This document shows positions 21,099 to 38,266 of a DNA stretch of 47,681 bases, piece by piece. Each line of letters begins with the position of its first letter. Positions within the stretch are counted from its first letter, which is position 1. The position numbers and the translations under genes are program-made. Under the pieces are notes generated by a model. It did not search any database. It had not been told where the DNA came from and saw only the letters and a program-made list of their open reading frames with translations. The stretch is from a virus, in the IMG/VR virus record IMGVR_UViG_3300000271_000001, positions 1-47,681 of that record; one strand, written 5' to 3'.

Positions 21099-21123
21099 GC
21101 TGGTCCCGTCTGAATTTTCCCGC

Positions 21124-21490: not shown

Positions 21491-21684
21491 TGCTTCATTG
21501 TTTCTATTGCGGGGAGCGCGCATCGTTCCTCTGCGATTATCCCGACTGCGATCGTCCTATATGCGCTGGCCATACCAGGCGAATCGGTTTCGTCTGCTAT
21601 CGCGCGAGGAACAAGCGCTTGAGCGACACGGTCGATTGCTGCACAACTCACGACGACTGGAAAGGCGACTATGCAGACCGATGA
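21490..21684 (+). CDS. small Cys-rich (zinc-binding-like) protein
   Basis: 64 aa containing CFYCG...CDYPDCDRPIC...H...CC. TAATG overlap with the upstream gene. Confidence 0.5.
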   Translation: MLHCFYCGERASFLCDYPDCDRPICAGHTRRIGFVCYRARNKRLSDTVDCCTTHDDWKGDYADR

Positions 21685-21895
21685 CCAGGGACCGAAGGTT
21701 CCAAAGCACTATGGTTTTCTTACGCTGGCGACCAGCTGGCTGGCGAACGAAATCGGGAAAAAGATGAACACGCTGGCACGCGACGAAAACGAAGAACGGG
21801 AAGCGCTGATGCAGCTGGAACACGATGTCCTGATCGCGCTGCAAAAATATCAGCAATACTTCGATGAAAAAAAAGGCGACGACACCGATGGCTAA
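21671..21895 (+). CDS. hypothetical protein
   Basis: 74-aa ORF with operon overlap. Confidence 0.45.
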   Translation: MQTDDQGPKVPKHYGFLTLATSWLANEIGKKMNTLARDENEEREALMQLEHDVLIALQKYQQYFDEKKGDDTDG

Positions 21896-22055
21896 AATGC
21901 AAAAATTTCGGTTCCTTTACTGCACGGGCGACGGTGAAGTCGTGAAAGAGGAATTCGAATTCGAGGACGGGACCAGAATGGAAACAGTTCGTCTGGAATT
22001 CCTGGACTGGCTGCAGAAAAAGACCAGCGCGACTTTTTATCCCGTCAACCAATAG
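21888..22055 (+). CDS. hypothetical protein
   Basis: ATG 21888 overlaps the upstream stop by 8 nt. 55 aa. Confidence 0.4.
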   Translation: MAKMQKFRFLYCTGDGEVVKEEFEFEDGTRMETVRLEFLDWLQKKTSATFYPVNQ

Positions 22056-22071
22056 TCATTGGGGGAATCGA

Positions 22072-22335
22072 ATGAAAAAGAACGAATCGCAGAAAATGAT
22101 CACAATGCCTTACCAGGAATACCTGGACGACCTTGAAGCTGTACGAGCTGAAGTATATGAACAGCGCATAGCCCCGATCAGGGAGCTGATCGAAGTCGGG
22201 GTCAGCTTGCATAAGACGATCGACAGGATGCCACACGTTTTCTGGAAGTTCGAAGGGACCAAGGAAAAGCTTATGGAACAACTCTGCGAAATTCTCGATA
22301 TGCCCACCGTGGACGAAATGCGCAAGGGTTTATAA
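22072..22335 (+). CDS. hypothetical protein
   Basis: 87-aa ORF. Confidence 0.5.
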   Translation: MKKNESQKMITMPYQEYLDDLEAVRAEVYEQRIAPIRELIEVGVSLHKTIDRMPHVFWKFEGTKEKLMEQLCEILDMPTVDEMRKGL

Positions 22336-22352
22336 AGGGGGAAACAGGTGTT

Positions 22353-22676
22353 ATGCAGCGAATTCAATTTCTGAACCCATGGGGGACGATCGCCTTTTCC
22401 GACATGCAAATGCGCAAGCTGATCGGGTTCGGTGCTCCGATCATGAACGGTTCGGAATTCATCGGGTGGAACGTGAGCGCAAACCCCTGCCAGCTCGACT
22501 TTTCAGTGTGGCTTTCCTTCGTCCCCGACGTTTACCGCGATCAGTGCATGGACATTTGCAGACGTGTCGCTCAGGAATTTCACTATCGAATGATCAAGGA
22601 TCAAACCCATGAGGAAATCATAGTCGCAGTGCAGCGGCGAATCTGGCGCGAAGTCGAACCCGTCGCTGTCGAATAG
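22353..22676 (+). CDS. hypothetical protein
   Basis: 107-aa ORF. Confidence 0.5.
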   Translation: MQRIQFLNPWGTIAFSDMQMRKLIGFGAPIMNGSEFIGWNVSANPCQLDFSVWLSFVPDVYRDQCMDICRRVAQEFHYRMIKDQTHEEIIVAVQRRIWREVEPVAVE

Positions 22677-22743
22677 ATTTCTGGTTATGATGATTAGTAA
22701 GTTTCACCCCGGTAAACGCACTGAATATAAAGGAGCGCACGAC

Positions 22744-22962
22744 ATGAGCGACAAGCCTAAAACCTACGATCCGAAAAAAGCGCGCGTGGTGATCGGGGGG
22801 GAGGAAGTCGAACCCTTTGAAGGAACGATTATGGGGACATGGAAAACCGATCAGCAAACCGACCATGGAAAAATTCATGCAGAAACTATAGAAAGGAAAT
22901 GCGAGTGCGGAAAGGCTGAGTGCGAACACTGTTCGACTCCAGGATCATACCGGAAAGGATAA
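22744..22962 (+). CDS. small Cys-containing protein
   Basis: AAAGGAG RBS before ATG 22744. 72 aa with a C-terminal CECGKAECEHC motif. Confidence 0.45.
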   Translation: MSDKPKTYDPKKARVVIGGEEVEPFEGTIMGTWKTDQQTDHGKIHAETIERKCECGKAECEHCSTPGSYRKG

Positions 22963-22965
22963 GAG

Positions 22966-23385
22966 ATGTATTTTAACGCGACCAGAACCGATCGGGTTCC
23001 GGGTGTGATATACCCGACAAACCGCTGTTTCGACGATGCAGTTGAAATTGCGATGAAACTGGTCGCACGGTTTCCAGTTCATGGCATGCTCAGTCGAATC
23101 AGAATCGTCCACGGTTTGCTTACCATGCCTATGGAAAGCGAGGTTTTCGCGCATGCCTGGGTTCTGCTTGATCGTGACAAGGTGATTCAGCGCGGGATTA
23201 AGGACGACATGGTAATCGAATACGCCTTGACCGTCGATGAATTCAGGGACCTTTACAAACCCGCTCACTGTATCCAATATAGCCTGAAAGAAATCAGGGG
23301 ACTGATTCAGCGGAATAAGAACTGCGGTCCTTTTAACCGAAGGTTCTGGAACCATGTGAACTGGAACGGGGGAAAGCCTGAGTGA
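22966..23385 (+). CDS. hypothetical protein with a Cys...His arrangement (possible papain-like fold)
   Basis: 139 aa with NRCFDDAVE, then FAHAWVLLD and further His/Asn residues. The fold idea is speculative. Confidence 0.4.
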   Translation: MYFNATRTDRVPGVIYPTNRCFDDAVEIAMKLVARFPVHGMLSRIRIVHGLLTMPMESEVFAHAWVLLDRDKVIQRGIKDDMVIEYALTVDEFRDLYKPAHCIQYSLKEIRGLIQRNKNCGPFNRRFWNHVNWNGGKPE

Positions 23386-23648
23386 AACAAAAGCTAGTTC
23401 GGTATGCAGCTGCATTTTTATTTTTCAACGCATTGCTTGCAGGTGTCGGGATTTTTCTGAACCTGACCAGCACTGGCGACAGCGAACGCAATATGCTGCC
23501 GCTTGATAAGACGTTCTGTGTCGAAATCTGCCTTAAGGAACTGCAGGAACGCGCTGTCTTTCCTGACTTTCACGAAGCTGTCAAACGCTGCGATTTTATG
23601 TTTGGGGGAACCGATACGTGCGAGCTGTCGAGTCAGCGGGTGAAGTAA
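23382..23648 (+). CDS. small membrane or secreted protein
   Basis: GTGA overlap start. N-terminal hydrophobic segment AAAFLFFNALLAGVGIFLNL. Confidence 0.45.
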   Translation: MKQKLVRYAAAFLFFNALLAGVGIFLNLTSTGDSERNMLPLDKTFCVEICLKELQERAVFPDFHEAVKRCDFMFGGTDTCELSSQRVK

Positions 23649-23933
23649 AAAAAGTGTTCCATGTGAAACTATTTTTGACTTTCGTCAATCTGATTTTGCT
23701 TCCAGCTGCAATTCTGCTTGGGGCTTTGAAAGGTTTCGGGGTGATAAGCGCGAACCTTGTCGAGCTATGGACAGGTCGTGTGGGCAAGTGATCGGACAAA
23801 GCTTTTTGCTGACACTCGGAGTCGTCCCCTTGATCACTTCCCGCCATGGCTGCGGAATTCCTCGAACCCCCACACGACCTGCAATTCCATGATAAGCTGT
23901 CCACGTTGCGATATCCAATAGCAGAGGTATGAA

Positions 23934-24239
23934 ATGAAAGAATGGCTCTTAGGTCTTATCGTGCGTTTCATCGTCGAACAGATCCGCAACGGTGGAATTG
24001 AATCGCTTGCGGAAAAGCTGCAGGCGATTGTAATCCCCACTGTTCGCAAGTATAAAGACGAAATTTTTGATCGTCTGAAAGCCGAAGCTGCAGCGGACGG
24101 TGATCCGAACGGATTGAACGATTCAGTCGTCGAAGCACTGGACCTTTTTTTCGACGCGCTGATCCCGAACTGTTCACAATGCCTGGCCAGTGTGTCAAAA
24201 TCAGAAAATCAGCAAAGCGAAAATCTGGCGGTGAGCTAG
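23934..24239 (+). CDS. hypothetical protein
   Basis: 101-aa ORF with an AGAGG RBS. It is the last gene before two terminators. Confidence 0.5.
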   Translation: MKEWLLGLIVRFIVEQIRNGGIESLAEKLQAIVIPTVRKYKDEIFDRLKAEAAADGDPNGLNDSVVEALDLFFDALIPNCSQCLASVSKSENQQSENLAVS

Positions 24240-24256
24240 AGGGAAAAGCAAGGGGG

Positions 24257-24290
24257 ACCGGGACGCGCACACGTTTCCGGTTTTTTTCTT
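24257..24290 (+). terminator. intrinsic terminator
   Basis: ACCGGGA (24257-24263) pairs with TTCCGGT (24275-24281), followed by T7CTTTT. Confidence 0.65.
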
Positions 24291-24393
24291 TTGCCCGCTG
24301 CGTCTGACTTCCAGCCTGGCGACATGATAAGATCGTGCTATGCCATAACGGGCGACGCGCTCAGAATTTCGAGGACAGTCAGTCGTAAGCGGG

Positions 24394-24425
24394 GCCCCGG
24401 GATCTTTCCCAGGGGCTCTTTTTTT
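24394..24425 (+). terminator. intrinsic terminator (second of a tandem pair)
   Basis: GCCCCGGGA pairs with TCCC(A)GGGGC around a TCTT loop, followed by TCTTTTTTT. Confidence 0.65.
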
Positions 24426-24700
24426 ATGCACCGATCACCTTCCATGGCGCAATTAAACCGAGCTACGTTTTATTTGATAACTTCGATTTTCATTCCATGT
24501 CACATTGACTAAAAGATTGCGAAACGACCTTTATGCAATTTGATCGAATCATTCAGTCGGCACCGATCACGCCTCGCCGCGGACGAGCTCTAACGAGGCG
24601 AGGCATCGAGGCGAAAATCTCGAGCGCGCGCGGCGAACTCACTCTCGAAGTTTCCAAACGAATCGGGCAAGCTTGACGAAAATTCGGGGGAGCGCAAACC

Positions 24701-28148: not shown

Positions 28149-28799
28149 ATGGCAGTCACTATTTTAAACGACAGACCTTCGACGTTTTCGGAGTGGGGCG
28201 AGGGGAACCCGGCACCGGGAACCAATATCGTCGAACCGCCTAGTGAAGTTCAAACAGCGACATGGCAAGCGGGAGGTTTCCCGCCAGCGCCTTATATGAA
28301 CTGGCTGCACTATATCAGCCAGAAATGGGAAAAGAACCTGGACGAACGCGCTCCCAGAATTCCCATGATGAAATGGTTCGTCGGTGCGCAGTCGGGCTGT
28401 CACTTCGCGACTATTCAGGATGCGCTTGCATCGTCGGACGTTCTGAACGGTGATTTCATTTACGTGTCCCCTTCGAACGCGAATGCGTTTTTGACAGCTG
28501 CGATCACTATTTCGAAATCGGTCCGCCTTTACTTCGAACCAGGCTTTCGATTTTTCAAGTCCGACGCTGCAGCGACTCGCGCGCTGATTCTGAATGCAGG
28601 GGATATTGAAATTCATGGCGCTGAATTCAGTTCGGGCTGGTCCACGGCTGGAAATATAGCGATCCTTTTAAACTCCACTGCGCGCCGCTGTCGGATCATG
28701 GGTTGCAAGTTCGATTCGTCGATCGACGCCTTTATCGACGACTCTGCGGTTCCATCGACCTACGTCCCGGTGATCGCAAATAACATAGTGGAGTATTAA
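28149..28799 (+). CDS. tail fibre/spike protein
   Basis: The N-terminal IVEPPSEVQTATWQAGGFPPAPYMNWLHY pattern is common in fibre N-termini. The C-terminal part looks beta-helix-like. Confidence 0.55.
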   Translation: MAVTILNDRPSTFSEWGEGNPAPGTNIVEPPSEVQTATWQAGGFPPAPYMNWLHYISQKWEKNLDERAPRIPMMKWFVGAQSGCHFATIQDALASSDVLNGDFIYVSPSNANAFLTAAITISKSVRLYFEPGFRFFKSDAAATRALILNAGDIEIHGAEFSSGWSTAGNIAILLNSTARRCRIMGCKFDSSIDAFIDDSAVPSTYVPVIANNIVEY

Positions 28800-28803
28800 A
28801 AGC

Positions 28804-29304
28804 ATGGCATCGCTGATCGAACGCATTGTCGCGCACGTCCTCAAAATAGGACCGAAAGCAAACACGAATGATCTAGGGCTGATTTTTGATAATGGAAACG
28901 GATCACCGCCTGGTTTCAAGGTCGAAGCATCAACGAATATCCTTAAGTTTTCATCGGGGGGAAACCCTTACCAGGCGTTCCCTTCGGATCCGGTCGTCGA
29001 AACGGTCACGGGCACGAAAGCCATGGGAGCGGGGGATAACAAAAAGATTTTGTTATGCGACTGCACGTCGGCCTTGGTTATTATCGACGTTCCCGATCCT
29101 GCGGTCGTCGGCTCGGGCTATAGCTTCGTGGCTGTCGATAAGAAAATGAACGCAAGCTTGACGAACTATATTCGGCTGCAGCGAAACGGATCCGAAAAGA
29201 TCGGTGAAGTCGCTGCAGACTTTTATTTGTATGAAGCTGGCGGGTTCGTCGAAGTGGTCACAGACGGAACAGACTGGTTTATTTTGCGCAGGGGGAATTG
29301 CTGA
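28804..29304 (+). CDS. hypothetical fibre-module protein
   Basis: 166-aa ORF. The stop overlaps the next start (TGATG). Confidence 0.5.
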   Translation: MASLIERIVAHVLKIGPKANTNDLGLIFDNGNGSPPGFKVEASTNILKFSSGGNPYQAFPSDPVVETVTGTKAMGAGDNKKILLCDCTSALVIIDVPDPAVVGSGYSFVAVDKKMNASLTNYIRLQRNGSEKIGEVAADFYLYEAGGFVEVVTDGTDWFILRRGNC

Positions 29305-30641
29305 TGGGACGCAGAGTTTTCACGACAGACGGGACATTCGTCGCGCCAGCTGGCGTTTTCAAGGTTCGCGTGCGCGGAGTAAGAAAACCGCCGGTTATGG
29401 AAGGGAACGGGACAGCTGCGTTTTATATTGATCAGGATAACGACCTATGGGCTGTCGGTCCTGGTTCGCAGGGACAGCTGGGGGACTTTTCGACCACTGC
29501 GAAAAGTTCACCGGTAAAGACCAGCGGAAGTTTGAAGTTCATTTCAGTTTCCAATGGCGGGGGACTTTCCTATCCGAAAACGGTCGGGATCACTCGCAAC
29601 GGTCTGGCCTATAGCTGGGGAACGAACACCGAAGGGGGTTTAGGCCAGAATAGTACGACGGTCGCTGTATCGGTTCCAGGTATGGTCGTGGGGGGATTGA
29701 AATTCAAAAAGGTCGCGGTTTCCATGAACACCAGCGCTTATGGAATTGCTTGCGACGGGAAAATGTATGCCTGGGGTGGGAACACTTATGGACAGCTGGG
29801 CGATAACTCGGTCACGAATCGCAGTTCGCCTGTGCTGGTGCTCGGTGGGCTGACTTGGATCGACGTGGCTGCAGGTGATCAGTCGGTAATCGCTATTTCG
29901 TCTGCGGGTGAGGTTTATTCATGGGGACGAAACGACGAAGGGCAGCTAGGTATAGCGACGAACGGTCCTGGTTCAGGAAAGTCCAGCCCTGTAAAGGTTT
30001 CCGTGCTGACAGGATCTTTCGTCAAAGCTGTGCAAATGGGTTTCACATATGCAGCACTGAAATCAGACGGCAAGGTCTGGGCCTGGGGAGCGAACTATGC
30101 AGGTGAAATCGGGGACGGGACCAGCGGTTTCGGAAACGACAAATTCACACCTGTTCAGACTTCGCAAGCTTCGCTGATTTTCAGTGAGCTATATGCGACC
30201 TACGATGAAACCCTCGGAGGCGCAGCTGTTATCGCAAAAGCGACGAACGGAAACTATTACGGCTGGGGTGCGAACAGCTTCGGACAGTTCGGAATTAACG
30301 ATCGAACCTCGCGTTCCAGTCCAGTGCAGGTCCTGACGGGCTATGATTTCCTGCGACTGAATTCGTTTGGCAATGGCTGGTGGGCTCAAACGAAAAACCT
30401 TGCGACCTATGCCTGGGGCGGGAACGGGAACGGTCGTTTAGGGGACGGGACGACCGCAGCGAAATCGACACCCGTTCTGCTTTCGCATCCGATTTATCAA
30501 GCTGATCCAACGGAATTCGTGAGCGTGCTGGACGTGACACCTGGAACGTCTTACAGCGTGACCATAAATAACGTGATCGGCGCGTCGTTCGGATCGACTG
30601 TCGTCGGACCTATTGTCGATTCGGTCGTCGTCGAATACTGA
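29304..30641 (+). CDS. RCC1-repeat beta-propeller protein (putative receptor-binding or fibre component)
   Basis: Seven repeats of the (Y/W)xWGxNxxGQLG type: LWAVGPGSQGQLGD, AYSWGTNTEGGLGQ, MYAWGGNTYGQLGD, VYSWGRNDEGQLGI, VWAWGANYAGEIGD, YYGWGANSFGQFGI, TYAWGGNGNGRLGD. Confidence 0.8.
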   Translation: MGRRVFTTDGTFVAPAGVFKVRVRGVRKPPVMEGNGTAAFYIDQDNDLWAVGPGSQGQLGDFSTTAKSSPVKTSGSLKFISVSNGGGLSYPKTVGITRNGLAYSWGTNTEGGLGQNSTTVAVSVPGMVVGGLKFKKVAVSMNTSAYGIACDGKMYAWGGNTYGQLGDNSVTNRSSPVLVLGGLTWIDVAAGDQSVIAISSAGEVYSWGRNDEGQLGIATNGPGSGKSSPVKVSVLTGSFVKAVQMGFTYAALKSDGKVWAWGANYAGEIGDGTSGFGNDKFTPVQTSQASLIFSELYATYDETLGGAAVIAKATNGNYYGWGANSFGQFGINDRTSRSSPVQVLTGYDFLRLNSFGNGWWAQTKNLATYAWGGNGNGRLGDGTTAAKSTPVLLSHPIYQADPTEFVSVLDVTPGTSYSVTINNVIGASFGSTVVGPIVDSVVVEY

Positions 30642-30669: not shown

Positions 30670-31716
30670 ATGAAACAACTTTCGAAAGAGGCTTTTAAAG
30701 ATCGAACTGATCGGGTTCCCGACTGGCTCAAAAATCCTGAAATCCCGGTTATGCAGCTGCCAGCGTTTCATATACCCGGCTTTCGTGCGCAGCGTGCGCG
30801 CGAAGCCGGCCTTGCAAACAAATGGCTGATCTATACCTGGGGCGGTCTGGGGGATGCAGTCTGCGCGACGCCAGTGATTCAGTTCATTCTGAATCGAATG
30901 CCTGAAATCGACCTTTTCGTCAAAAGCGAATGGCCAGAACTTTTCCGCGACGCAAGGCTGAAAGCGGTTTTCGGTCCCGACGACAAACCGAACGATAAGG
31001 AATTTTATGTCAGCCAGACAGTTCACCCACCGGACTATTTGCAATGGCAGTTCTTCAATCACATGATCACGCATAGCGTCGATTTCATTTCCCAGTCGAT
31101 CCTTCGCATGCAGCTGCCTGTGAAAGATCGCGCGATCGTGCTACCTGATTATCCCTTACCGCCTGGCCTTGACACTGCGGTCGATTGGGAACGTGCGATC
31201 ATTGTCCACGCTGGAAAGCACTGGCCTAGTAAAACCTTCCCGCAGGACTGGTGGCAGGACGTGATCGACCGCCTTGCGCAGCGCTTTCAGGTCGTCCTGA
31301 TCGGTCGAAATTTAGGACATGATCAGGGATACGTCCCGATAACCCCGACCAGCAACGCAGTCGATCTAAGGGACGCGCTCACCCTTCCAGGTCTGATCGC
31401 GGTTCTGAAACGCTGCAAGCGGGTTCTGACAAACGATAGCGCTCCCCTTCACATAGCGGCCGCTGGCAATGCGCGGATCTATTTCCTGGCGACTGTGAAG
31501 CATGAGGACTACCTCTATCACTGGCGCAAGGGTGTGTTCGGTGCGGGTATGGTTCACCTGAACCGCGACAATATGTATAACGAAGGGGGTTTCAATTTCT
31601 GCACTGGCCAGGACTTGATTCTGGAAAGCTGCACGCGCGAGCGCATGCTGGAAATGATCGGACACCCGCTGAATACCGTGCAGTCGATCTTTCAGCTGGA
31701 AGGGGCTCTTTCATGA
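30670..31716 (+). CDS. GT9-like (heptosyltransferase-family) glycosyltransferase, paralogue 1
   Basis: WGGLGDAVCATPVIQFILNRMPEIDLFV and VLTNDSAPLHIAAA motifs. ATG 30670 is preceded by AAAGAGCACC. Confidence 0.65.
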   Translation: MKQLSKEAFKDRTDRVPDWLKNPEIPVMQLPAFHIPGFRAQRAREAGLANKWLIYTWGGLGDAVCATPVIQFILNRMPEIDLFVKSEWPELFRDARLKAVFGPDDKPNDKEFYVSQTVHPPDYLQWQFFNHMITHSVDFISQSILRMQLPVKDRAIVLPDYPLPPGLDTAVDWERAIIVHAGKHWPSKTFPQDWWQDVIDRLAQRFQVVLIGRNLGHDQGYVPITPTSNAVDLRDALTLPGLIAVLKRCKRVLTNDSAPLHIAAAGNARIYFLATVKHEDYLYHWRKGVFGAGMVHLNRDNMYNEGGFNFCTGQDLILESCTRERMLEMIGHPLNTVQSIFQLEGALS

Positions 31717-32738
31717 ACGAGCCAGTGAACCTGCGCGGAATAGATCTTTTGAACGACGTGGTCCAGCTCCCTGTTCATTTGCTCCCGAGCTATAGGAATA
31801 AAGAGGCCATGGAAAGGGGAAAGACAAACCGTTGGCTGTTCGGCGCTTATGGCGGGCTCGGGGACGTGGTCTGCAGCGAACCGACCGTTCGCTATATGCA
31901 GCAAAAATTTCCCAGTGCAGACCTGACAGTTCTTACCGAATACCCGGAAGTCTTTTCACACCTGAATGTCAGGACAGCGGACTTTTATTCAGAGATCGAC
32001 CTGCGCGAGTATCGCTTTTTCGAAAACGGTCTGAAAGACGGTCTTTTATGGGAATTCGTTCAGCCAGGCGCGATCCCCGCAGTTGACCTGATTTCCATTG
32101 CTGCGCTGCAGCGTCCCCTTCCCCCCCGCGATAAAATGATCGTCCTATCGAAAGCGAAAAGCGATCACCCGTTCTTCGCTGACTTCGCTCGGAACACCGC
32201 GCGCTTTATCGTCGTGCATCCTGGCAGGTCGTGGCCTAGCCGAACTTTCCCAATATCATTTTGGGAACAATTCATAGTTAAGATTTCTGAAAAATGGACG
32301 CCAGTCGTAATCGGACGGGACGCGAAGGATGGGGCGAACGGTGTCCTGGACGTTTCAGTTCCCCCGAACGCGATCGACCTGCGGAACGATCCCGACTTTC
32401 AGCTGAAAGACCTGATCAGCTTTCTTTCACACGCTGACAAGGTGTTCACGAACGACAGCGCACCGCTGCATATTGCTGCGAGCGACGGGGCTCGGATCGG
32501 GTTTATCAGTTCAGCCAGACCAGGCTGGCATCTTATGCACTATCGCGCGGGTGTCCAGGGCTGGAACCAATGGGATTTTGCAAAAACCTGTTTGCTGGAC
32601 GAAATGGACTGGAACCCTCTGAACCCCTGCGCGCTCAACTATGATCAGGTTCCCGACGAACAGTTCTGGTCGCGTGTGCTCCCCGATCCTGAACTGCTTT
32701 CCGAACGCCTCTTTCAGCTATGGAGTTATGAATCATGA
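31713..32738 (+). CDS. GT9-like glycosyltransferase, paralogue 2
   Basis: YGGLGDVVCSEPTVRYMQQKFPSADLTV and VFTNDSAPLHIAAS motifs. Colinear similarity to 30670..31716. Confidence 0.65.
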   Translation: MNEPVNLRGIDLLNDVVQLPVHLLPSYRNKEAMERGKTNRWLFGAYGGLGDVVCSEPTVRYMQQKFPSADLTVLTEYPEVFSHLNVRTADFYSEIDLREYRFFENGLKDGLLWEFVQPGAIPAVDLISIAALQRPLPPRDKMIVLSKAKSDHPFFADFARNTARFIVVHPGRSWPSRTFPISFWEQFIVKISEKWTPVVIGRDAKDGANGVLDVSVPPNAIDLRNDPDFQLKDLISFLSHADKVFTNDSAPLHIAASDGARIGFISSARPGWHLMHYRAGVQGWNQWDFAKTCLLDEMDWNPLNPCALNYDQVPDEQFWSRVLPDPELLSERLFQLWSYES

Positions 32739-33334
32739 ACCCTGAAATCAAGGAATTCAGAAAACTGCCTGAATTCGAGTTTCTAAAAAAACGCGCCGAA
32801 AGTTTCGCGATTGCGGTCGATCACCTATTAAGCCTCAAGCGATCCGCATCGGTTATCGAAACGGGCTGCATGCGTTCATGGGCTGGGGAATTTTGCTGGG
32901 AAGGGGACGGGCGATCGACTGCAATATGGGACTGGTGCCGAAAGCAGGCTGATGTTTCCTTGACGATCGTGTCGATTGACATAGATCCAAGCGCGGTCCA
33001 GCGCGTAAAAACTGAGTGTCCCGAAGTGATCGGGATAAATCGGAACAGCCTTGAATTTTTCCAGACAGCCGAAGCGCGACAGCTCGCGCAGGACTGCATG
33101 CTTTTGTATCTCGACTCTTTCGACTGGACACCGGAACTTAATCAAGCGAGCGCGTTTCACCACATGGCTGAACTCGCACTGGTATATGGCCTGCTCCCGA
33201 AAGGCTGTATGATCATGGTTGACGACTGTCACGAAGAATATGAGGGCAAGCATTGGGTGGTTTCTGAATTCATGAAAACGATCGGTTTGCGTCCGCTTTA
33301 TGAGGGATACCAGACTATATGGAAAAAATACTGA
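32735..33334 (+). CDS. class I SAM-dependent methyltransferase-like protein
   Basis: VIETGC (motif I-like), IVSIDID and LLYLDSFDW...MIMVDD pattern. Confidence 0.45.
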   Translation: MNPEIKEFRKLPEFEFLKKRAESFAIAVDHLLSLKRSASVIETGCMRSWAGEFCWEGDGRSTAIWDWCRKQADVSLTIVSIDIDPSAVQRVKTECPEVIGINRNSLEFFQTAEARQLAQDCMLLYLDSFDWTPELNQASAFHHMAELALVYGLLPKGCMIMVDDCHEEYEGKHWVVSEFMKTIGLRPLYEGYQTIWKKY

Positions 33335-33837
33335 ACAGCGAAAACCGCGAACTTTACGTTCGCAGGTTCCTCACACCAGCCACGGTTCCGACCGACGATC
33401 CGATCCTTGCTGCGATCTTTCGCGTCGAATCGCAATATGATCCTTTTGCGATGCGTTTCGAACCTGAATATCAGTGGGTTTATAACGCAGCCTTTTTTGC
33501 AAGGCAGTGCGGGATCACTCTGCAGACAGAAATCACGCTGCAGAAATTCAGTTATGGCCTGGGGCAAATAATGGGGGGAACCGCTCGCTGGCTCGGATAC
33601 AGGGGACCGCTCCCTGGTTTGCTTGACGTGGAAACGAACGTCCACTGGTGCAGTGTTTACTGGAATTCGCTGGTGCAGAAATATAACGGGGACACCTGGA
33701 AAGCAGTGAGCGCATACAATGCAGGCAACGCTGCAGGATGCGACACTGGAAAATGCAGAAACCAGGACTACGTCGATAAAGTGAAAGCCGAAGCTGGGAT
33801 CGTCGCAAAAAACTCGCGCTGGAAGTCCAGCGTTTAA
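33319..33837 (+). CDS. lytic transglycosylase (SLT domain)
   Basis: [12 protein letters not shown] (catalytic Glu-Ser context) and [17 protein letters not shown]. Confidence 0.75.
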
Positions 33838-33856: not shown

Positions 33857-34858
33857 ATGGGTTTGGTTCAATTTCCGGTTCCTGGTCCGCAAGGTCCGCA
33901 AGGGGAAACAGGTCCGCAGGGAATTCAAGGTCCCCAAGGGGAAACTGGACCGCAGGGGATCCAAGGCGCGACAGGTCCGCAGGGGCCCCAAGGTGAAGTC
34001 GGTCCGCAAGGTCCAGCTGGACAGGGCGTTCCCGCAGGTGGAACGACTGGACAGGTTCTGAAAAAAAACTCTGACACCGACTACGATGCAGACTGGTCTG
34101 ATGAATCAGGAGGCGGAGGCGGAGGCGGAGTCGATCCAAGGACTGAATTTGTACTGATGGACAAGTTTACGCCCTCGCAGCAAGCCTCCATTGTCTATTC
34201 TGAGGTTTTCGGAACCGCTTCGGGGAACACCGGTTCCAGTAGTCGCCAGTTCGGTTGGTTGCATGGTAACTATTGCGTCTATTTGCAAGTCGTATCAACT
34301 GCAACTATTACTAGCAATCAGGCTTTCGACAGTAATACTCAGACTGTGACGGGTGTTGCCGGAACTTCGCAAGCTGCGCCACCGTCTGGAACAGTAGTTG
34401 AAATTGAAGTCAGATTCAAACATTTGGCTGACAATCTTCCAAACAACAATCAGCAAACTTGGTTTTTTGGGTTTGTGAATACCATCTCCAATATTCACAA
34501 TACGATCGTAGGCGTTCCCTGTTATGGGTTTCAGATAAACGGAAATGCTACTGGAATAACGCTCGGTCGATATATGGTCCGAATAAAAAAAGCAGCCGAT
34601 AGTGCCAATACCTGGATTGACTGCGGGGCCGTCAGTGCAGGATGGCATAAAGCAAGGATGCGAATAACGACTATTTCACAGGATAACTACACTTTCGAAT
34701 TTTATTTCGATGACGTTCTGATTCACACCGAAACAAATTGCACCTGGAGTAGTGTCACTTCCAGATTAAATTGTGGTGTGACAGGCGGCGCGGGTTACGT
34801 AAGCGGAACCTACGGCGTACTTTATGATTATCACTATTTGAAATACATACCTGTTTAG
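33857..34858 (+). CDS. collagen-like tail fibre protein
   Basis: About 16 uninterrupted G-X-Y triplets ([15 protein letters not shown]...), then a G6 hinge and a ~230-aa globular C-terminus. Confidence 0.75.
33884..34030 (+). repeat. 9-nt periodic collagen-coding tandem repeat
   Basis: GGTCCGCAA-type units read directly. Confidence 0.8.
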
Positions 34859-35703: not shown

Positions 35704-35961
35704 ATGCCCATGATCAAGCTTGATTTCCAGGTAGTAAACCAGAATGGGCTTTGGATGGTCGTTATGAGGTCGGAAACTTTTTCCGCGCTCAAACGCAGGG
35801 AAAGTGAACTGATGCAGGACTTCGGGGATGCAGTGAAACTGCTCAGGGATTGGATCGAAACGGAAGCACGAAACATTTTATGGGAAACCGCTCGGGAGGA
35901 TTTAGGTAATGGCAAAAAGAAAGCCGCGGCCAGCGCAGGTGATCGTAACAATCGACTCTGA
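35704..35961 (+). CDS. hypothetical protein
   Basis: 85-aa ORF that overlaps the ParB-like gene by 53 nt. Confidence 0.4.
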   Translation: MPMIKLDFQVVNQNGLWMVVMRSETFSALKRRESELMQDFGDAVKLLRDWIETEARNILWETAREDLGNGKKKAAASAGDRNNRL

Positions 35962-36589
35962 CGTGATCATGGTCCCGCTCAGTAAAATAAAGCCATATGA
36001 GAAGAACAATAAGAAACATAAAGGTCCCGATATTGAAAAACTCGCGGACCATATTTTAGAGGTAGGCTGGGATCAGCCGATCGTTCTGGACGAAAATCAT
36101 GTGATCCTGAAAGGCCACAAGCGCTATGCTGCAGCGCGTTCACTGAATATGATCGACGCGCCTTGCATCCTGAAACCAGGGCTCACTGAATCGCAGAAAA
36201 AGAAAATCAGGATCGCTGATAACCGTCTGAACGAATCGGAATGGGATATTGAAAACCTGAAAGCCGAGCTGGACGAACTGCATGAACTGGACGACGAATT
36301 CGACGACGAAGAACTAGGGTTCGACGACGGTGAAATCGACTCGCTGTTCGGGGACGACGACGACGAAGAACGATCCGACGCGCTCGCAGAGGACGATCCC
36401 CCGCCAGCTGAAATCCCGATGAAAAAGGAAACCAGGACGATAGAGTCGAATCGAGTCACGACGATCGAAACCCACACACCGCAGCCTGGGGAACAGAAAC
36501 CGGGATCCAAGGAATTCACCGCTGGCGACTTTGAAAAGTTCGATCATGTCTGTCCACGTTGCGGGTTTGAATTCGATGATAAAAAATGA
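35909..36589 (+). CDS. ParB/Srx-like nuclease-domain protein
   Basis: IKPYEKNNKKH...WDQPIVLDENHVILKGHKRYAAARSL motif, an acidic linker and a C-terminal CPRCG. GGAGGA RBS. Confidence 0.75.
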   Translation: MAKRKPRPAQVIVTIDSDVIMVPLSKIKPYEKNNKKHKGPDIEKLADHILEVGWDQPIVLDENHVILKGHKRYAAARSLNMIDAPCILKPGLTESQKKKIRIADNRLNESEWDIENLKAELDELHELDDEFDDEELGFDDGEIDSLFGDDDDEERSDALAEDDPPPAEIPMKKETRTIESNRVTTIETHTPQPGEQKPGSKEFTAGDFEKFDHVCPRCGFEFDDKK

Positions 36590-37667
36590 GCGTCGCTATA
36601 TTGCGGACGAACTCACCAGCGTCCCCTGGACACTCGCGCAGCTGCGAAAGAGTGAAATCGGCCTGAAACCCAACGGGCTGAAAGTCTTTTCATGCTTCGC
36701 ATGTGGCGGGGGTTCGTCCATGGGTTATCGACTGGCGGGATATACCTGCCTTGGGGGAGTCGAAATAGATCCCAAAATCGCTGCGATGTATCTCAGAAAC
36801 CTGAACCCTCAATTTTTCTTCACAATGCCAGTCCAGGATTTTAACCGCATCAAGCCACACCAGCTCCCGCGCGAACTTTTCGAACTCGATATTCTGGACG
36901 GTTCCCCGCCATGCAGTTCATTCAGCATGGCTGGCGATCGGGAAAAGCGCTGGCAGGTGAAAAAGAAATTCAAGGAAGGGCAAGCGGAACAGGTTCTGGA
37001 CGACCTTTTCTTTCACTTCATTCAGACCGCGCGCAAGCTGAACCCGCGCGTCGTCGTCGCGGAAAACGTGAAAGGGCTGATCAGCGGGACCGCCAGGGGA
37101 TACGTGAAAGAAATTTTCAAGCGCTTTGATGCGATCGGCTACGACTGCCAGCTGTTCCTATTGAACGCAGCGCGCATGGGTGTCCCCCAGCGCAGGGAAC
37201 GGACTTTCTTCGTCGCGCGTCGCAGGGATCAGGATTTCCCCGAACTGATCCTGAACTTTCGTGAAAAGGAAATCAGCGCCTATGAAGCGACCGAAGGACA
37301 GCTTGACGGTTATCTCTGCGGAAAAGCAAACCTGCGACGAACAAAAAAAGGTCTGCGTCCTTTATGGGACACCCGAACTATGCCCGCTCCGACAGCGACA
37401 GCCAGTGGACTTTATTTCCGGGAGCGTGAAAGCGAGGACTGGAAAACGACGGGATCGCTGGCCAATATCAGGCTGCAGTCTTTCCCGGACGACTACGACA
37501 GCCTTGGGGTCCGACCGGTTTTCGTGACCGGTATGTCGGTTCCCCCGCTTATGCTGCAGCGCCTGGCGCATGAAATCTATTTGCAGTGGTTTGGAAGGAA
37601 GGAAGTCACGCAAGGCGCTTTATTTCAAACACAACATTCTGATCAAGCTTCGCTGCAAACTCCATAA
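36576..37667 (+). CDS. DNA (cytosine-5)-methyltransferase
   Basis: FSCFACGGGSSMGY (motif I), GSPPCSSFSMAG (motif IV), ENVKGL (motif VI), QRRERTF (motif VIII) and GMSVPP (motif X). Confidence 0.9.
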   Translation: MIKNERRYIADELTSVPWTLAQLRKSEIGLKPNGLKVFSCFACGGGSSMGYRLAGYTCLGGVEIDPKIAAMYLRNLNPQFFFTMPVQDFNRIKPHQLPRELFELDILDGSPPCSSFSMAGDREKRWQVKKKFKEGQAEQVLDDLFFHFIQTARKLNPRVVVAENVKGLISGTARGYVKEIFKRFDAIGYDCQLFLLNAARMGVPQRRERTFFVARRRDQDFPELILNFREKEISAYEATEGQLDGYLCGKANLRRTKKGLRPLWDTRTMPAPTATASGLYFRERESEDWKTTGSLANIRLQSFPDDYDSLGVRPVFVTGMSVPPLMLQRLAHEIYLQWFGRKEVTQGALFQTQHSDQASLQTP

Positions 37668-37917
37668 GCGAGTCGATCGTTATACCTTGGATCTTTCCGT
37701 TCATAACATTGCTTACGCGCGACTGGGGAATATCAAGTATTTTCGACACCTGATGCTGAGTCAGGTCGCGCTGTTTTATGTTATCGACGATATAGAGCCA
37801 AAGTTCCTGCTTGAAGCGCAGACGTGCGCTTTCGTCTGGGCTGAACCCCAGGTCCTCAAAGACATTGTCGCCTTTGGTATATTCGACCTTTTCTTCGTTT
37901 TCGATTTTCTTTTTCAT
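37606..37917 (-). CDS. higA: XRE-family HTH antitoxin (HigA-like)
   Basis: NVFEDLGF...LTQHQVSKILDIPQSRVSNVMNGKIQGITIDSL pattern. Directly downstream of the toxin gene. Confidence 0.75.
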   Translation of the reverse strand: MKKKIENEEKVEYTKGDNVFEDLGFSPDESARLRFKQELWLYIVDNIKQRDLTQHQVSKILDIPQSRVSNVMNGKIQGITIDSLMEFAAKLDQNVVFEIKRLA

Positions 37918-37933
37918 GGTCCGTTCCCTTTCG

Positions 37934-38266
37934 TTATTTCAGAACCTGTTCCATGGTCTTATAGCGAACCTGTCCTTTTTCGATTTCAGCTTTCGGGGTT
38001 TTCTGGGACTTTTTGACGAATGAGTGAAGCACGATAACCTTGTCCCCACGGTTCACGACATAAAAACAGCGACCGACGTTTCGACCTTCACCGTCGCGAA
38101 CCCGAATTTCCAGAACCCCCTTCCCCACTGTTATCATGGGTTTGAAGTCCCTAGGTTCCAGACCTTTTTGAAGCAATCGAAGGTCGAAACCGATTTCGCG
38201 CTTCACGTCCTCGGGAAGGTCCCGAAGTTCTTTCAGTGCGTTTCCAATCCAAAGCAGGTCCTTCAC
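37934..38266 (-). CDS. higB: RelE/ParE-superfamily toxin (Gp49/HigB-like)
   Basis: 110 aa with GVLEIRV...RCFYVV...VIVLHSFVKKSQKTPKAEIE pattern. The order toxin first, antitoxin second is typical of hig loci. Confidence 0.75.
   Translation of the reverse strand: MKDLLWIGNALKELRDLPEDVKREIGFDLRLLQKGLEPRDFKPMITVGKGVLEIRVRDGEGRNVGRCFYVVNRGDKVIVLHSFVKKSQKTPKAEIEKGQVRYKTMEQVLK

What the first reader, a model, noticed from the sequence alone, without database searches (positions are those of the whole stretch)
30670..33334. Two paralogous GT9-like glycosyltransferases plus a methyltransferase embedded between fibre genes
Both ORFs carry the GT9 heptosyltransferase hallmarks (GGLGD...P near the N-terminus and TNDSAPLHIAA near the C-terminus) and are clearly duplicates. 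They are followed by a SAM-MTase-like ORF, and all are co-oriented and overlapping within the fibre operon, between the RCC1 protein and the SLT and collagen-like fibre genes. GT9-related enzymes either build the LPS inner core or, in the autotransporter heptosyltransferase branch (Aah/TibC type), O-heptosylate proteins. There are two hypotheses. The phage may glycosylate and methylate its own fibre proteins (virion glycosylation is documented for some mycobacteriophages). Alternatively, it may remodel host LPS core as superinfection exclusion. Either would be an unusual late-gene function.
Basis: partly seen in the sequence, partly recalled or inferred. Interest (0 to 1): 0.7.

Follow-up and report, generated by a model that had tools for sequence, protein, structure and literature searches.

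The report
Phage fibre-linked heptosyltransferase-like glycosylation cassette
An uncultivated contractile-tailed phage carries two duplicated heptosyltransferase-like enzymes and a sugar-type methyltransferase directly after its propeller-shaped tail-fibre gene; this pairing recurs across many uncultured phages and most likely decorates the fibre protein with a methylated sugar chain, though that is not yet proven.

Summary
GT-A (30670-31716) and GT-B (31713-32738) are paralogues, 35% identical (E 6e-53). Both pass Pfam GT9. GT-A models as a GT-B fold whose only strong structural matches are GT9-type enzymes: Veillonella GT9, TibC, WaaF and WaaC. ORF-C (32735-33334) is a divergent class I SAM methyltransferase, closest in fold to sugar and catechol O-methyltransferases.

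The enzymes belong to a phage-specific GT9 clade. It has 287 clusters at 50% identity, is absent from 50,697 cultured-phage records, and has four full-length hits among 185,579 species genomes. In 36 of 46 evaluable GT clusters (70% identity) the gene lies next to an RCC1 propeller fibre gene of one particular subtype. Relatives are fused to GT8, GT2, GT25 and methyltransferase domains, so the module builds a capped oligosaccharide.

The catalytic Asp and the heptose/phosphate-contacting Lys, Asp and His of WaaC are conserved. The strongly basic acceptor domain of LPS heptosyltransferases is missing: pI is about 6 versus about 9, close to TibC at 6.9.

Best reading (about 0.5): cytoplasmic glycosylation of the fibre protein. 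LPS remodelling is less likely (about 0.2). The enzymes are not members of the TibC/Aah family. I rate this a new variant of a known kind.

The parts
28149..28799 (+). 216-aa tail-fibre-module protein lying directly after the baseplate wedge gene. Context only, not part of the enzyme cassette.
   Evidence: Weak PHROG tail-fibre match (phrog_2126, E 0.005). Homologues occupy the same position in L004, L005 and L011.
28804..29304 (+). 166-aa conserved partner gene that precedes the RCC1 gene in many related phages. Probably a fibre adaptor or shaft; function unknown.
   Evidence: No Pfam or PHROG hit. Homologues lie immediately upstream of the RCC1 gene in at least 18 loci.
29298..30641 (+). 447-aa seven-bladed RCC1 beta-propeller protein. 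The propeller sits between an N-terminal 'PAGV' strand segment and a C-terminal 'VTPG..Y...EY' segment. It is the presumed receptor-binding fibre protein and the predicted acceptor of the glycosylation cassette.
   Evidence: Pfam RCC1 (1.3e-48, 7 stretches) and WD40_RLD (6.9e-53). A gene of this kind is adjacent to the GT in 36 of 46 evaluable GT clusters. The N- and C-terminal motifs occur in 73% and 90% of GT-linked RCC1 proteins versus 6% and 2% of RCC1 proteins from loci without a GT.
30670..31716 (+). GT-A: 348-aa GT9-like GT-B glycosyltransferase of a phage-specific clade. Predicted inverting enzyme with an ADP-heptose-type donor site.
   Evidence: Pfam PF01075, 45 bits. AF2 pLDDT 92.6. 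Top Foldseek PDB hits are 3tov, TibC, WaaF and WaaC. Invariant D62, K/R183, D256 and H261 correspond to WaaC D13, K192, D261 and H266. pI 6.9, N-half net charge -3.
31713..32738 (+). GT-B: 341-aa tandem paralogue of GT-A that keeps every invariant family residue. It has unique H184S and K188R changes in the KHWPSK donor loop, so it may have a diverged specificity.
   Evidence: 35% identity to GT-A, E 6e-53. Pfam PF01075, 26.9 bits. Sister clade of GT-A. Column check. pI 5.3.
32735..33334 (+). ORF-C: 199-aa divergent class I SAM-dependent methyltransferase (Methyltransf_24-like). Predicted metal-dependent sugar O-methyltransferase that caps the glycan.
   Evidence: No Pfam hit for the protein itself, but 14 of 26 homologues hit Methyltransf_24 and 2 hit RMNT_CmcI. 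AF2 pLDDT 94.4. Best fold match is the mannose 3-O-methyltransferase MeT1 (6g7d), followed by COMT and MycE/MycF. A homologue lies inside the glycan gene cluster of cyanophage P-TIM68. An ORF-C-type gene follows the GT in 13 of 48 clusters.
33319..33837 (+). 172-aa SLT-domain lytic transglycosylase, overlapping ORF-C by 16 nt. Context only: a tail lysin or endolysin.
   Evidence: Pfam SLT 6.6e-14 and PHROG lytic tail protein. Conserved at this position in L004, L005, L008 and L011.
33857..34858 (+). 333-aa collagen-like (G-X-Y) tail-fibre protein. Context only, and an alternative possible acceptor.
   Evidence: Pfam Collagen 5.8e-07 and many PHROG tail-fibre families. Found in only about 7 related loci, so it is not what the GT tracks with.

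Best explanation
The three genes form a cytoplasmic glycan-assembly cassette that modifies a virion protein, most probably the RCC1-propeller tail-fibre protein encoded immediately upstream.

Shown:
- GT-A and GT-B are GT-B-fold enzymes of a phage-specific GT9 clade.
- They retain the catalytic Asp (D62, matching WaaC D13).
- They retain the residues that in WaaC contact the pyrophosphate and heptose (K/R183, D256, H261, matching K192, D261, H266).
- ORF-C has the fold of metal-dependent sugar and catechol O-methyltransferases.
- The GT is genetically coupled to one subtype of RCC1 fibre gene across deeply diverged phages.
- In relatives the GT9 domain is fused to further GT domains (GT8, GT2, GT25) and to methyltransferase domains.

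Inferred:
- During late gene expression GT-A transfers a heptose from host ADP-heptose onto a Ser/Thr (or other) side chain of the newly made fibre protein.
- The diverged paralogue GT-B adds a second sugar, either extending the first or at another site.
- ORF-C O-methylates the terminal sugar.
- The glycan then alters fibre stability or protease resistance, or how the fibre engages the host surface.
For: 1. Enzyme identity.
- Pfam GT9 for both proteins.
- The family profile hits WaaF at 6.5e-9.
- AF2 pLDDT is 92.6, and all top Foldseek PDB hits are GT9-type.

2. Catalytic competence.
- D62, D256 and H261 are invariant and position 183 is K or R in 45 diverse members, GT-B included.
- These positions map to WaaC by hhalign. 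Their roles are taken from the HepI literature.

3. Phage specificity.
- 287 clusters at 50% identity with E<=1e-30.
- 157 relatives in IMG/VR.
- Only 4 full-length relatives in 185,579 species genomes.
- None in cultured phages or PHROGs.

4. Coupling to the fibre gene.
- An RCC1 gene is adjacent in 36 of 46 evaluable 70%-identity clusters and in 13 of 17 50%-identity clusters.
- The median intergenic gap is 33 nt.
- The linked RCC1 proteins form a distinct architectural subtype.

5. Assembly-line logic.
- Fused architectures found: GT8-GT9, MT24-GT8-GT9, GT8-GT9-MT24, GT8-GT9-FkbM, GT2-GT8-GT9 and GT25-GT8-GT9.
- An ORF-C-type gene directly follows the GT in 13 of 48 clusters, typically overlapping by 4 nt.

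6. The acceptor is unlikely to be lipid A-Kdo.
- The phage clade has median pI 6.1 and N-half net charge -1.
- 119 chromosomal GT9 have pI 9.3 and N-half charge +9. WaaC has pI 9.0 and +10.
- The fused GT8 parts are also acidic.
- The protein O-heptosyltransferase TibC has pI 6.86 and net charge -1, and its gene also overlaps its substrate gene.

7. Late co-expression.
- No + strand promoter-like site occurs from 24.5 to 38.5 kb.
- The genes overlap.
- GC content does not differ from the neighbours.

8. Precedent.
- Phage-encoded virion glycosylation is known in mycobacteriophages (Freeman 2023, as cited in PMC11256854).
- Chlorovirus A064R is a GT + GT + methyltransferase enzyme that decorates its capsid protein.
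Against: - There is no direct evidence of any glycan on any protein.
- Adjacency is equally expected if the enzyme modifies the receptor that the neighbouring fibre recognises.
- RCC1 fibre genes often occur without the GT: 35 of 57 evaluable loci, plus 15 cultured-phage records.
- 10 of 46 GT clusters are not next to an RCC1 gene; they sit by the terminase or in early regions.
- GT9, GT8 and GT25 are the classical LPS/LOS core families. The donor half is most similar to WaaF, not TibC.
- The charge argument is indirect.
- The host is unknown, so availability of ADP-heptose is assumed.
- The acceptor residue cannot be predicted.
Confidence: 0.5

Rival explanations
1. Host envelope remodelling. 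The enzymes add heptose/hexose and a methyl group to nascent LPS/LOS core, or to another lipid-linked glycan. This would mask the receptor recognised by the neighbouring RCC1 fibre, giving superinfection exclusion or preventing progeny from sticking to debris. The enzyme genes would travel with the fibre gene because the two specificities are matched.
For: - GT9, GT8 and GT25 are the families that build LPS/LOS cores (Pfam descriptions).
- The best sequence matches are WaaF and heptosyltransferases I-III.
- The heptose-contacting residues are WaaC-like.
- Linkage of receptor-modifying genes to tailspike genes is known from temperate phages such as P22 gtrABC (my own knowledge).
- The Bdellovibrio-associated relative looks like a prophage with a serine recombinase.
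Against: - The clade lacks the strongly basic acceptor domain seen in every LPS-type GT9 examined: N-half charge -1 versus +9/+10, pI 6.1 versus 9.3. The fused GT8 domains are acidic too.
- All NCBIfam heptosyltransferase equivalog scores are far below cut-off (27 versus 185 bits).
- The N-terminal halves share no detectable sequence similarity with LPS enzymes.
- The genes have no promoter of their own and are translationally coupled inside a late structural operon. This is poor timing for changing surface LPS.
- No integrase was found among the window ORFs scanned.
- The clade is essentially absent from bacterial chromosomes.
Confidence: 0.2
2. The cassette glycosylates a different soluble acceptor: another virion protein (the collagen-like fibre, 28149-28799, capsid or tube) or a host protein. 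The RCC1 adjacency would then reflect only the common position of accessory genes at the end of the fibre module.
For: - 10 of 46 GT clusters are not adjacent to RCC1 genes. Some lie beside the terminase or before other fibre genes.
- In mycobacteriophages the modified proteins are capsid and tail tube, and the GT genes are not adjacent to them (my own knowledge).
- The acidic, soluble character of the enzymes fits any protein acceptor.
Against: - Adjacency to a specific RCC1 architectural subtype holds across GT identity as low as about 33% and across different phage backbones.
- The collagen-like gene is present in only about 7 loci.
Confidence: 0.15
3. The GT9-like proteins are non-catalytic: a fibre assembly chaperone or a structural virion component derived from an enzyme fold.
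For: The gene directly after a tail-fibre gene is often a fibre chaperone (my own knowledge). The N-terminal roughly 50 residues are a family-specific extension of unknown role.
Against: - The catalytic Asp and donor-binding residues are invariant in 45 diverse members.
- The domain is repeatedly fused to other glycosyltransferase and methyltransferase domains.
- RCC1 fibres frequently exist without it.
Confidence: 0.04
4. The enzymes glycosylate phage DNA (hypermodified bases), as the T4 glucosyltransferases do.
For: T4 alpha- and beta-glucosyltransferases are GT-B enzymes (my own knowledge). A few relatives lie in early or recombination regions or next to ParB-like genes. The window encodes a ParB_N protein and a C5 DNA methylase downstream.
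Against: - No hydroxymethylase or other base-modification gene was found among the window ORFs scanned.
- The proteins are acidic.
- The donor site is heptosyltransferase-like.
- The dominant genomic context is the fibre module.
Confidence: 0.02

Closest known systems
TibC/Aah bacterial autotransporter heptosyltransferases (BAHT family; PDB 4rap/4rb4)
   Same: - GT-B-derived heptosyltransferase fold, giving the best TM-scores to the GT-A model (0.57-0.60).
- Catalytic Asp in a G-x-L-G-D loop: TibC GTLGD110, phage GGLGD62.
- Only four N-lobe strands of 3 or more residues in the GT-A model. TibC is described as having a reduced four-stranded N-lobe sheet.
- Near-neutral soluble protein (pI 6.86 versus 6.1-6.9).
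- The gene abuts its protein substrate gene.
   Different: - No N-terminal beta-barrel and no four-cysteine iron finger. The beta-hairpin thumb was not assessed.
- Negligible sequence similarity (12 bits).
- The donor loop is NDSxPLH, as in WaaF, rather than TibC's GLPSGLSW.
- The proposed substrate is a beta-propeller, not a beta-helix autotransporter.
- The context is a phage, not a virulence locus.
LPS inner-core heptosyltransferases WaaC/WaaF (CAZy GT9; PDB 2gt1/2h1h, 1psw)
   Same: Pfam PF01075, GT-B fold, a conserved KHWP loop and a (N/V)D(S/T)xxxH loop that in WaaC bind pyrophosphate and heptose, and an N-terminal catalytic Asp.
   Different: - Only the C-terminal donor half is recognisably similar.
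- Equivalog models score far below cut-off.
- The basic acceptor surface for Kdo2-lipid A is missing.
- The clade is encoded almost exclusively by phages, next to fibre genes.
Mycobacteriophage virion glycosylation (Che8 and relatives; Freeman et al. 2023, Cell Host Microbe 31:1216)
   Same: Phage-encoded cytoplasmic glycosyltransferases that decorate the phage's own structural proteins (for the citation; details from my own knowledge).
   Different: - The hosts there are Gram-positive-type actinobacteria, and I recall no GT9-type enzymes being involved (the paper could not be read).
- There the targets are capsid and tail tube, and the GT genes lie far from the structural genes.
- Here a GT9 clade is welded to a fibre gene in phages of apparently Gram-negative hosts, and glycosylation is not yet demonstrated.
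Chlorovirus PBCV-1 A064R (two glycosyltransferase domains plus a methyltransferase domain)
   Same: The same functional composition, two sugar transfers followed by O-methylation of the terminal sugar, acting on a virion protein glycan. The activities are made by soluble virus-encoded enzymes. Phage relatives fuse them into one polypeptide, as A064R does.
   Different: The enzyme families are unrelated (GT-A-like rhamnosyltransferases versus GT9/GT8). A064R belongs to a eukaryotic giant virus, acts on an N-glycan of the capsid protein, and is experimentally proven.
Lysogenic-conversion O-antigen/LPS modification genes linked to tailspike genes (e.g. P22 gtrABC)
   Same: Glycan-modifying genes that sit beside the receptor-binding protein gene (my own knowledge).
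   Different: Those systems use membrane proteins, are expressed from the prophage, and act in the periplasm on undecaprenyl-linked sugars. Here the enzymes are soluble, acidic, have no promoter of their own, and lie inside a late operon.

Membership tests
CAZy GT9 / Pfam PF01075 (heptosyltransferase-type GT-B) | Sequence match to the family model above the curated threshold | tested here: met
   GT-A scores 45 bits and GT-B 26.9 bits against a gathering score of 22. The match covers the C-terminal donor half only.
CAZy GT9 / Pfam PF01075 (heptosyltransferase-type GT-B) | Two-lobed GT-B fold most similar to solved GT9 structures | tested here: met
   AF2 pLDDT 92.6. All Foldseek hits with E<1e-6 are 3tov, TibC, WaaF or WaaC. 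Only GT-A was modelled.
CAZy GT9 / Pfam PF01075 (heptosyltransferase-type GT-B) | Catalytic base Asp after strand beta-1 (WaaC Asp13) and donor-contacting Lys192, Asp261 and His266 | tested here: met
   D62, D256 and H261 are invariant and position 183 is K or R in 45 members, including GT-B. hhalign maps K183, D256 and H261 to WaaC K192, D261 and H266. D62 is assigned by position in the strand-to-helix loop and by alignment to 3tov.
LPS heptosyltransferase I/II/III (WaaC/WaaF/WaaQ equivalogs) | NCBIfam equivalog score above cut-off | tested here: not met
   Best score is 27.1 bits against a cut-off of 185.3 (TIGR02193). All others are lower.
LPS heptosyltransferase I/II/III (WaaC/WaaF/WaaQ equivalogs) | Basic N-terminal acceptor domain that binds anionic Kdo2-lipid A | tested here: not met
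   N-half net charge is -3 for GT-A, -2 for GT-B and -1 for the clade median. It is +9 in 119 chromosomal GT9 and +10 in WaaC. The basic acceptor residues of HepI are described.
LPS heptosyltransferase I/II/III (WaaC/WaaF/WaaQ equivalogs) | Uses ADP-L-glycero-D-manno-heptose as donor | not testable with these tools
   Only inferred, from conservation of the heptose-contacting residues.
BAHT family (TibC/Aah protein O-heptosyltransferases) | N-terminal flattened beta-barrel (TibC residues 1-97) | tested here: not met
   Residues 1-50 of the GT-A model are short helices and coil, and the Rossmann-like lobe starts at residue 51.
BAHT family (TibC/Aah protein O-heptosyltransferases) | Iron finger of four conserved cysteines (TibC C339, C342, C358, C370) | tested here: not met
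   GT-A has Cys at 65, 249, 311 and 321; GT-B has Cys at 54, 293 and 306. Only C65 is conserved in the family.
BAHT family (TibC/Aah protein O-heptosyltransferases) | Significant sequence similarity to TibC/Aah | tested here: not met
   The family profile against TibC gives 12 bits, E 0.47 in the PDB search. No BAHT model appears in the NCBIfam scan.
BAHT family (TibC/Aah protein O-heptosyltransferases) | Enzyme gene adjacent to, and co-transcribed with, its protein substrate gene | tested here: inconclusive
   tibC overlaps tibA by 8 nt. The phage GT lies a median of 33 nt from an RCC1 gene. That the RCC1 protein is the substrate is unproven.
Class I SAM-dependent O-methyltransferases (Methyltransf_24 / CmcI / COMT-like) | Rossmann-like methyltransferase fold | tested here: met
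   AF2 pLDDT 94.4. 169 PDB matches with E<=0.001, and all 50 listed are SAM-dependent enzymes, nearly all methyltransferases. The best is MeT1 6g7d (E 7e-7, TM 0.63), with COMT, MycE and MycF also high.
Class I SAM-dependent O-methyltransferases (Methyltransf_24 / CmcI / COMT-like) | Match to a curated methyltransferase family model | tested here: inconclusive
   The window protein has no Pfam hit. 14 of 26 homologues hit Methyltransf_24 and 2 hit RMNT_CmcI. The PDB profile search is weak (E 0.088).
Class I SAM-dependent O-methyltransferases (Methyltransf_24 / CmcI / COMT-like) | SAM-binding motif I and acidic metal-binding residues | tested here: inconclusive
   Invariant E42-T43-G44, D82 (near-invariant), D127, D130, D163 and D164 lie where motif I, the ribose-binding acid and the COMT-type metal ligands would be expected. 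No residue-level superposition was available.
Phage virion glycosylation systems | Glycan demonstrated on a virion protein | not testable with these tools
   Requires mass spectrometry or glycoprotein staining.
Lysogenic-conversion surface-glycan modification | Temperate phage with independently expressed (moron-like) modification genes | tested here: not met
   No + strand promoter-like site in or before the block, overlapping genes, and no GC anomaly. No integrase was found among the window ORFs scanned, though not every small ORF was scanned. A distant relative does sit in a prophage-like element.

The most novel reading that the evidence does not exclude
The RCC1 propeller fibre is a 'glyco-adhesin'. 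It would carry a phage-built, methyl-capped, LPS-core-like heptose/hexose oligosaccharide, and that glycan, not only the protein surface, would determine host engagement or camouflage. Phages would then retune this property by swapping or fusing glycosyltransferase modules (GT9 duplication; GT8, GT2 and GT25 fusions; different methyltransferases) instead of mutating the receptor-binding protein. This would be a new axis of host-range evolution in phages of Gram-negative bacteria.
Probability: 0.12. Interest if true: 0.85.

Novelty: new variant of a known kind. Interest (0 to 1): 0.62.

Why it matters
Phage-encoded virion glycosylation has so far been demonstrated only in mycobacteriophages. 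Protein heptosylation is known only for bacterial autotransporter adhesins. Here a sizeable clade of heptosyltransferase-like enzymes (287 clusters at 50% identity) is found almost entirely in uncultured phages and is tied to one type of receptor-binding fibre.

If these enzymes glycosylate the fibre, three things follow:
- Virion glycosylation would extend to phages of Gram-negative hosts and to the host-recognition organelle itself.
- There would be a second, independent lineage of protein heptosyltransferases.
- Host range, stability or immune visibility could be tuned by exchangeable sugar-building modules.

The hypothesis is directly testable with three or four cloned genes in E. coli, which already makes ADP-heptose. 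If the enzymes instead remodel LPS, they would be the first phage heptosyltransferases used for receptor masking. Either outcome also corrects the automatic annotation 'ADP-heptose:LPS heptosyltransferase' now attached to these proteins.

Tried and rejected
- **Nucleotide search of cultured phages.** It found only collagen-repeat matches to mycobacteriophages, which say nothing about relatedness.
- **Protein search of cultured phages.** GT-A has no homologue in 50,697 records, so no cultured model phage exists.
- **RCC1 profile scan.** The 14-sequence alignment was too variable and the scan failed. A 5-sequence alignment worked.
- **Prasinovirus 'RCC1 + glycosyltransferase' paper.** It looked like a parallel, but its 'RCC1...' strings are Roscoff Culture Collection strain numbers. 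Discarded.
- **ORF-C versus fused methyltransferase domains.** hhalign of the ORF-C profile against the fused Methyltransf_24 domains of P0243 and P0258 was not significant. I claim the same broad family and an analogous association, not orthology.
- **First charge estimate for the GT8 extensions.** It picked up ORF-calling artefacts (out-of-frame upstream extensions) and gave a misleading pI of 9.7. Redone with proper domain borders, the pI is 6.1.
- **Freeman 2023 paper.** It is not held in the library, so it is cited second-hand.
- **Negative scans.** Rfam, tRNA and repeat scans and PADLOC found nothing relevant.
- **127.8-kb contig carrying a 90%-identical GT.** I hoped it would reveal a host. 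Only a 54.6-kb phage contig was returned, and the long contigs may be concatemer assemblies.
- **Acceptor residue.** It could not be predicted. S/T content and [ST][ST]P motif counts do not differ between GT-linked and GT-free RCC1 proteins.

Full report
**What is in the window.** The 47.7-kb window is an E217/PhiTE/Pam3-like contractile-tailed phage and is probably a complete genome.
- The structural genes run in the usual order: large terminase (191-1813), portal, MuF-like protein, major capsid protein, sheath (10506-11555), tube, tape measure and baseplate genes.
- After the sheath-initiator, a 621-aa baseplate protein and a wedge protein comes a co-directional block: 28149-28799 (weak tail-fibre match), 28804-29304, a seven-repeat RCC1 propeller protein (29298-30641), GT-A (30670-31716), GT-B (31713-32738), ORF-C (32735-33334), an SLT lytic transglycosylase (33319-33837) and a collagen-like fibre protein (33857-34858).
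- The junctions are a 28-nt gap, two 4-nt overlaps, a 16-nt overlap and a 19-nt gap.
- There is no + strand sigma-70-like promoter between 24.5 and 38.5 kb, and GC content is flat across the block.
One correction: '28149-30641' is three ORFs, not one.

**The two glycosyltransferases.**
- GT-A and GT-B are 35% identical over about 290 residues (E 6e-53). Both pass the Pfam GT9 threshold, although only their C-terminal halves match the model.
- A profile of 45 family members hits WaaF (6.5e-9) and the Veillonella GT9 structure 3tov, but TibC only at E 0.47.
- The AlphaFold model of GT-A is confident (pLDDT 92.6). Its significant Foldseek matches in the PDB are exclusively GT9-type enzymes: 3tov, TibC (best TM-scores, 0.57-0.60), WaaF and WaaC.
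- The family has invariant G58-G59-x-G61-D62, H180, G182, W185 and N255-D256-S257-x-P259-x-H261. GT-B keeps all of them.
- hhalign maps K183, D256 and H261 to WaaC K192, D261 and H266. I verified that my WaaC sequence equals PDB 2gt1_A.
- In HepI those residues contact the pyrophosphate and the heptose, and Asp13 is the catalytic base. D62 occupies the equivalent strand-to-helix loop.
- I conclude that both proteins are catalytically competent inverting GT-B enzymes with an ADP-heptose-like donor site. The donor identity is an inference.
- GT-B alone carries H184S and K188R in the KHWPSK loop, which suggests a changed specificity after duplication.
- A rough NJ tree puts the GT-A and GT-B lineages as sisters, shared with the related phages L004 and L005.

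**The third gene.**
- ORF-C has no Pfam hit itself, but 14 of its 26 homologues match Methyltransf_24 and two match the rhamnosyl O-methyltransferase/CmcI family.
- Its model (pLDDT 94.4) is a class I SAM methyltransferase. The best match is MeT1, the mycobacterial mannose 3-O-methyltransferase, followed by COMT and the macrolide sugar O-methyltransferases MycE and MycF.
- Invariant acidic residues (D127, D130, D163, D164) sit where COMT-type metal ligands would be expected. This is an inference.
- The only cultured-phage homologues are in cyanophages. In P-TIM68 the homologue lies inside a cluster of glycosyltransferases and sugar-nucleotide enzymes.

**A phage-specific clade tied to one kind of fibre gene.**
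- The GT-A family has 152 hits in the indexed protein search, many on 40-60-kb contigs, and 157 relatives in IMG/VR.
- A profile search of 1.84 billion representatives finds 287 clusters at E<=1e-30, well separated from ordinary GT9.
- Only four full-length relatives occur among 185,579 species genomes, all in MAGs. There is none in 50,697 cultured-phage records and no PHROG family.
- Calling ORFs in the fetched loci showed an RCC1-repeat gene immediately upstream on the same strand in 67 of 80 evaluable loci.
- After dereplication at 70% GT identity there are 48 clusters, 46 of them evaluable. RCC1 is upstream in 32, downstream in 4 and absent in 10. At 50% identity, 13 of 17 clusters show the adjacency. 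The median gap is 33 nt.
- The reverse does not hold. Of 57 evaluable IMG/VR loci chosen by RCC1 similarity, only 22 have the GT. RCC1 proteins of cultured cyanophages and Clostridioides phages have no such partner.
- The GT-linked RCC1 proteins are a distinct subtype. Their propeller is inserted between an N-terminal P-[AGS]-G-[VI] segment (73%) and a C-terminal V-x-P-G-x-x-Y segment (90%), and they often end in E-[YW]. These features occur in 6% and 2% of 53 RCC1 proteins from GT-free loci.
- The exceptions, where the GT is not next to RCC1, fall mostly into two subclades, one beside the terminase and one in early regions, plus a few singletons.

**Fusions show what the module does.**
- Many relatives are about 530-aa GT8-GT9 fusions.
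- Other members are Methyltransf_24-GT8-GT9, GT8-GT9-Methyltransf_24, GT8-GT9-FkbM methyltransferase, GT2-GT8-GT9 and GT25-GT8-GT9.
- An ORF-C-type gene follows the GT in 13 of 48 clusters, usually overlapping it by 4 nt.
- The recurring composition is a GT9 step plus, in many lineages, further sugar transfers and a methyl cap. This is what the window encodes as three separate genes.
- It makes a non-catalytic (chaperone) role very unlikely. It parallels chlorovirus A064R, a GT-GT-methyltransferase enzyme that finishes the capsid glycan.

**Which acceptor?** This step is inferred, not shown.
- Adjacency to the fibre gene fits two models: the fibre is the substrate (as tibC abuts tibA), or the fibre's receptor is the substrate (as with tailspike-linked seroconversion genes).
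- Three observations tilt towards a soluble protein acceptor.
  - LPS heptosyltransferases bind anionic Kdo2-lipid A through a basic N-terminal domain. The 119 chromosomal GT9 I extracted have median pI 9.3 and N-half net charge +9, and WaaC has 9.0 and +10. The 81 distinct phage-clade proteins have median pI 6.1 and N-half charge -1 (GT-A 6.9 and -3; GT-B 5.3 and -2). The fused GT8 parts are acidic too. TibC, the one GT9-like enzyme known to act on a protein, has pI 6.86 and net charge -1.
  - The genes are translationally coupled inside a late structural operon with no promoter of their own. That timing suits modification of virion proteins and suits surface LPS poorly.
  - The N-lobe of the GT-A model has only four strands of 3 or more residues, like the reduced N-lobe described for TibC. 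This probably explains the higher TM-scores to TibC.
- Against the protein model: GT9, GT8 and GT25 are the classical LPS/LOS core families, the donor half is closest to WaaF, and nothing here demonstrates a glycan on any protein.
- My estimates are about 0.5 for fibre (virion) protein glycosylation, 0.2 for envelope glycolipid remodelling, 0.15 for another soluble acceptor, and a few per cent each for a non-catalytic role or DNA glycosylation. No base-hydroxymethylation genes were found among the window ORFs scanned.

**Family membership.**
- The proteins are GT9-like by model score, fold and catalytic residues.
- They are not LPS heptosyltransferase equivalogs (27 versus 185 bits) and lack the basic acceptor domain.
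- They are not BAHT (TibC/Aah) members: no N-terminal beta-barrel, no four-cysteine iron finger, and no significant sequence similarity.
- They may work like TibC, but they are a separate lineage.
- Foldseek against viral models shows that other, very distant (13-20% identity) GT9-like proteins exist in uncultured Caudovirales. These are annotated 'RfaF', 'Aah/TibC' or 'GT9' and none is characterised.
- Literature searches found no description of a heptosyltransferase-like enzyme coupled to an RCC1 fibre.

**Verdict.** The finding is real and the annotation-level claims are right. The new evidence turns a single-genome curiosity into a conserved, phage-specific fibre-linked glycosylation module. 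The mechanism (protein heptosylation, extension and O-methylation of the RCC1 fibre) is the best-supported reading but remains untested. I rate it a new variant of a known kind, with interest 0.62.

Noticed in passing
window 17258-24700: About 7.4 kb of small ORFs without family matches, with lower GC (0.45-0.50), sits inside the tail module between the baseplate-hub genes and the gene preceding the sheath-initiator. It includes roughly 1.9 kb (17.26-19.19 kb) with almost no called genes. A similar run of small genes precedes the sheath-initiator in the related phages L004 and L247. No Rfam hit, tRNA or notable repeat was found.
   Followed up: partly
window 29298-30641; alignment A3: The RCC1 propeller is inserted between a short N-terminal 'tFt.PAGV..V.V' segment and a C-terminal 'VTPG.sY.I....FG......vvEY' segment. 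Together these probably form a small split beta-domain. This architecture marks the RCC1 proteins that have a GT partner and is almost absent from those that do not.
   Followed up: partly
loci L191, L198, L223/L224, L230-L236 (IMG/VR contigs): Some viral contigs carry tandem arrays of five to seven RCC1 paralogues of about 450 aa with no GT nearby. This looks like large-scale diversification of a propeller-type receptor-binding protein.
   Followed up: no
window 31713-32738 (GT-B residues aligned to GT-A 184 and 188): GT-B is the only one of 45 aligned family members with Ser instead of His and Arg instead of Lys in the KHWPSK donor loop. This hints at a different sugar donor after the duplication.
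   Followed up: partly
window 35909-38266: A ParB_N-domain protein (35909-36589) overlaps a C5 cytosine DNA methyltransferase (about 36546-37667). On the opposite strand there is an HTH protein (37606-37917) and a Gp49/HigB-like toxin homologue (37934-38266), which looks like a toxin-antitoxin pair. The arrangement is conserved in the close relative L247; L004 keeps the ParB_N-methylase pair.
   Followed up: no
L001-L003, L085; protein BFD67477.1: A 37%-identical GT with an RCC1 gene 9 nt upstream lies in a prophage-like element that has a serine recombinase. It is found in Bdellovibrio sp. HAGR004 and in Pseudobdellovibrionaceae MAGs. It appears to be the only carrier linked to a named organism and could serve as an experimental system.
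   Followed up: partly
L168 (Prochlorococcus phage P-TIM68, 159.6-170.2 kb): A cultured cyanomyovirus carries a roughly 10-kb glycan gene cluster: two glycosyltransferases, an ORF-C-like methyltransferase (gp186), a FabG-like reductase, a carbohydrate kinase and a nucleotide-sugar epimerase. All hypothetical proteins in it are uncharacterised.
   Followed up: no
cluster of GT-A: contigs of 54.6 kb and 127.8 kb: Near-identical copies of this roughly 47.6-kb phage occur on contigs longer than the genome. They may be concatemer assemblies of a circularly permuted genome or an integrated copy. The 127.8-kb contig could not be retrieved.
   Followed up: partly
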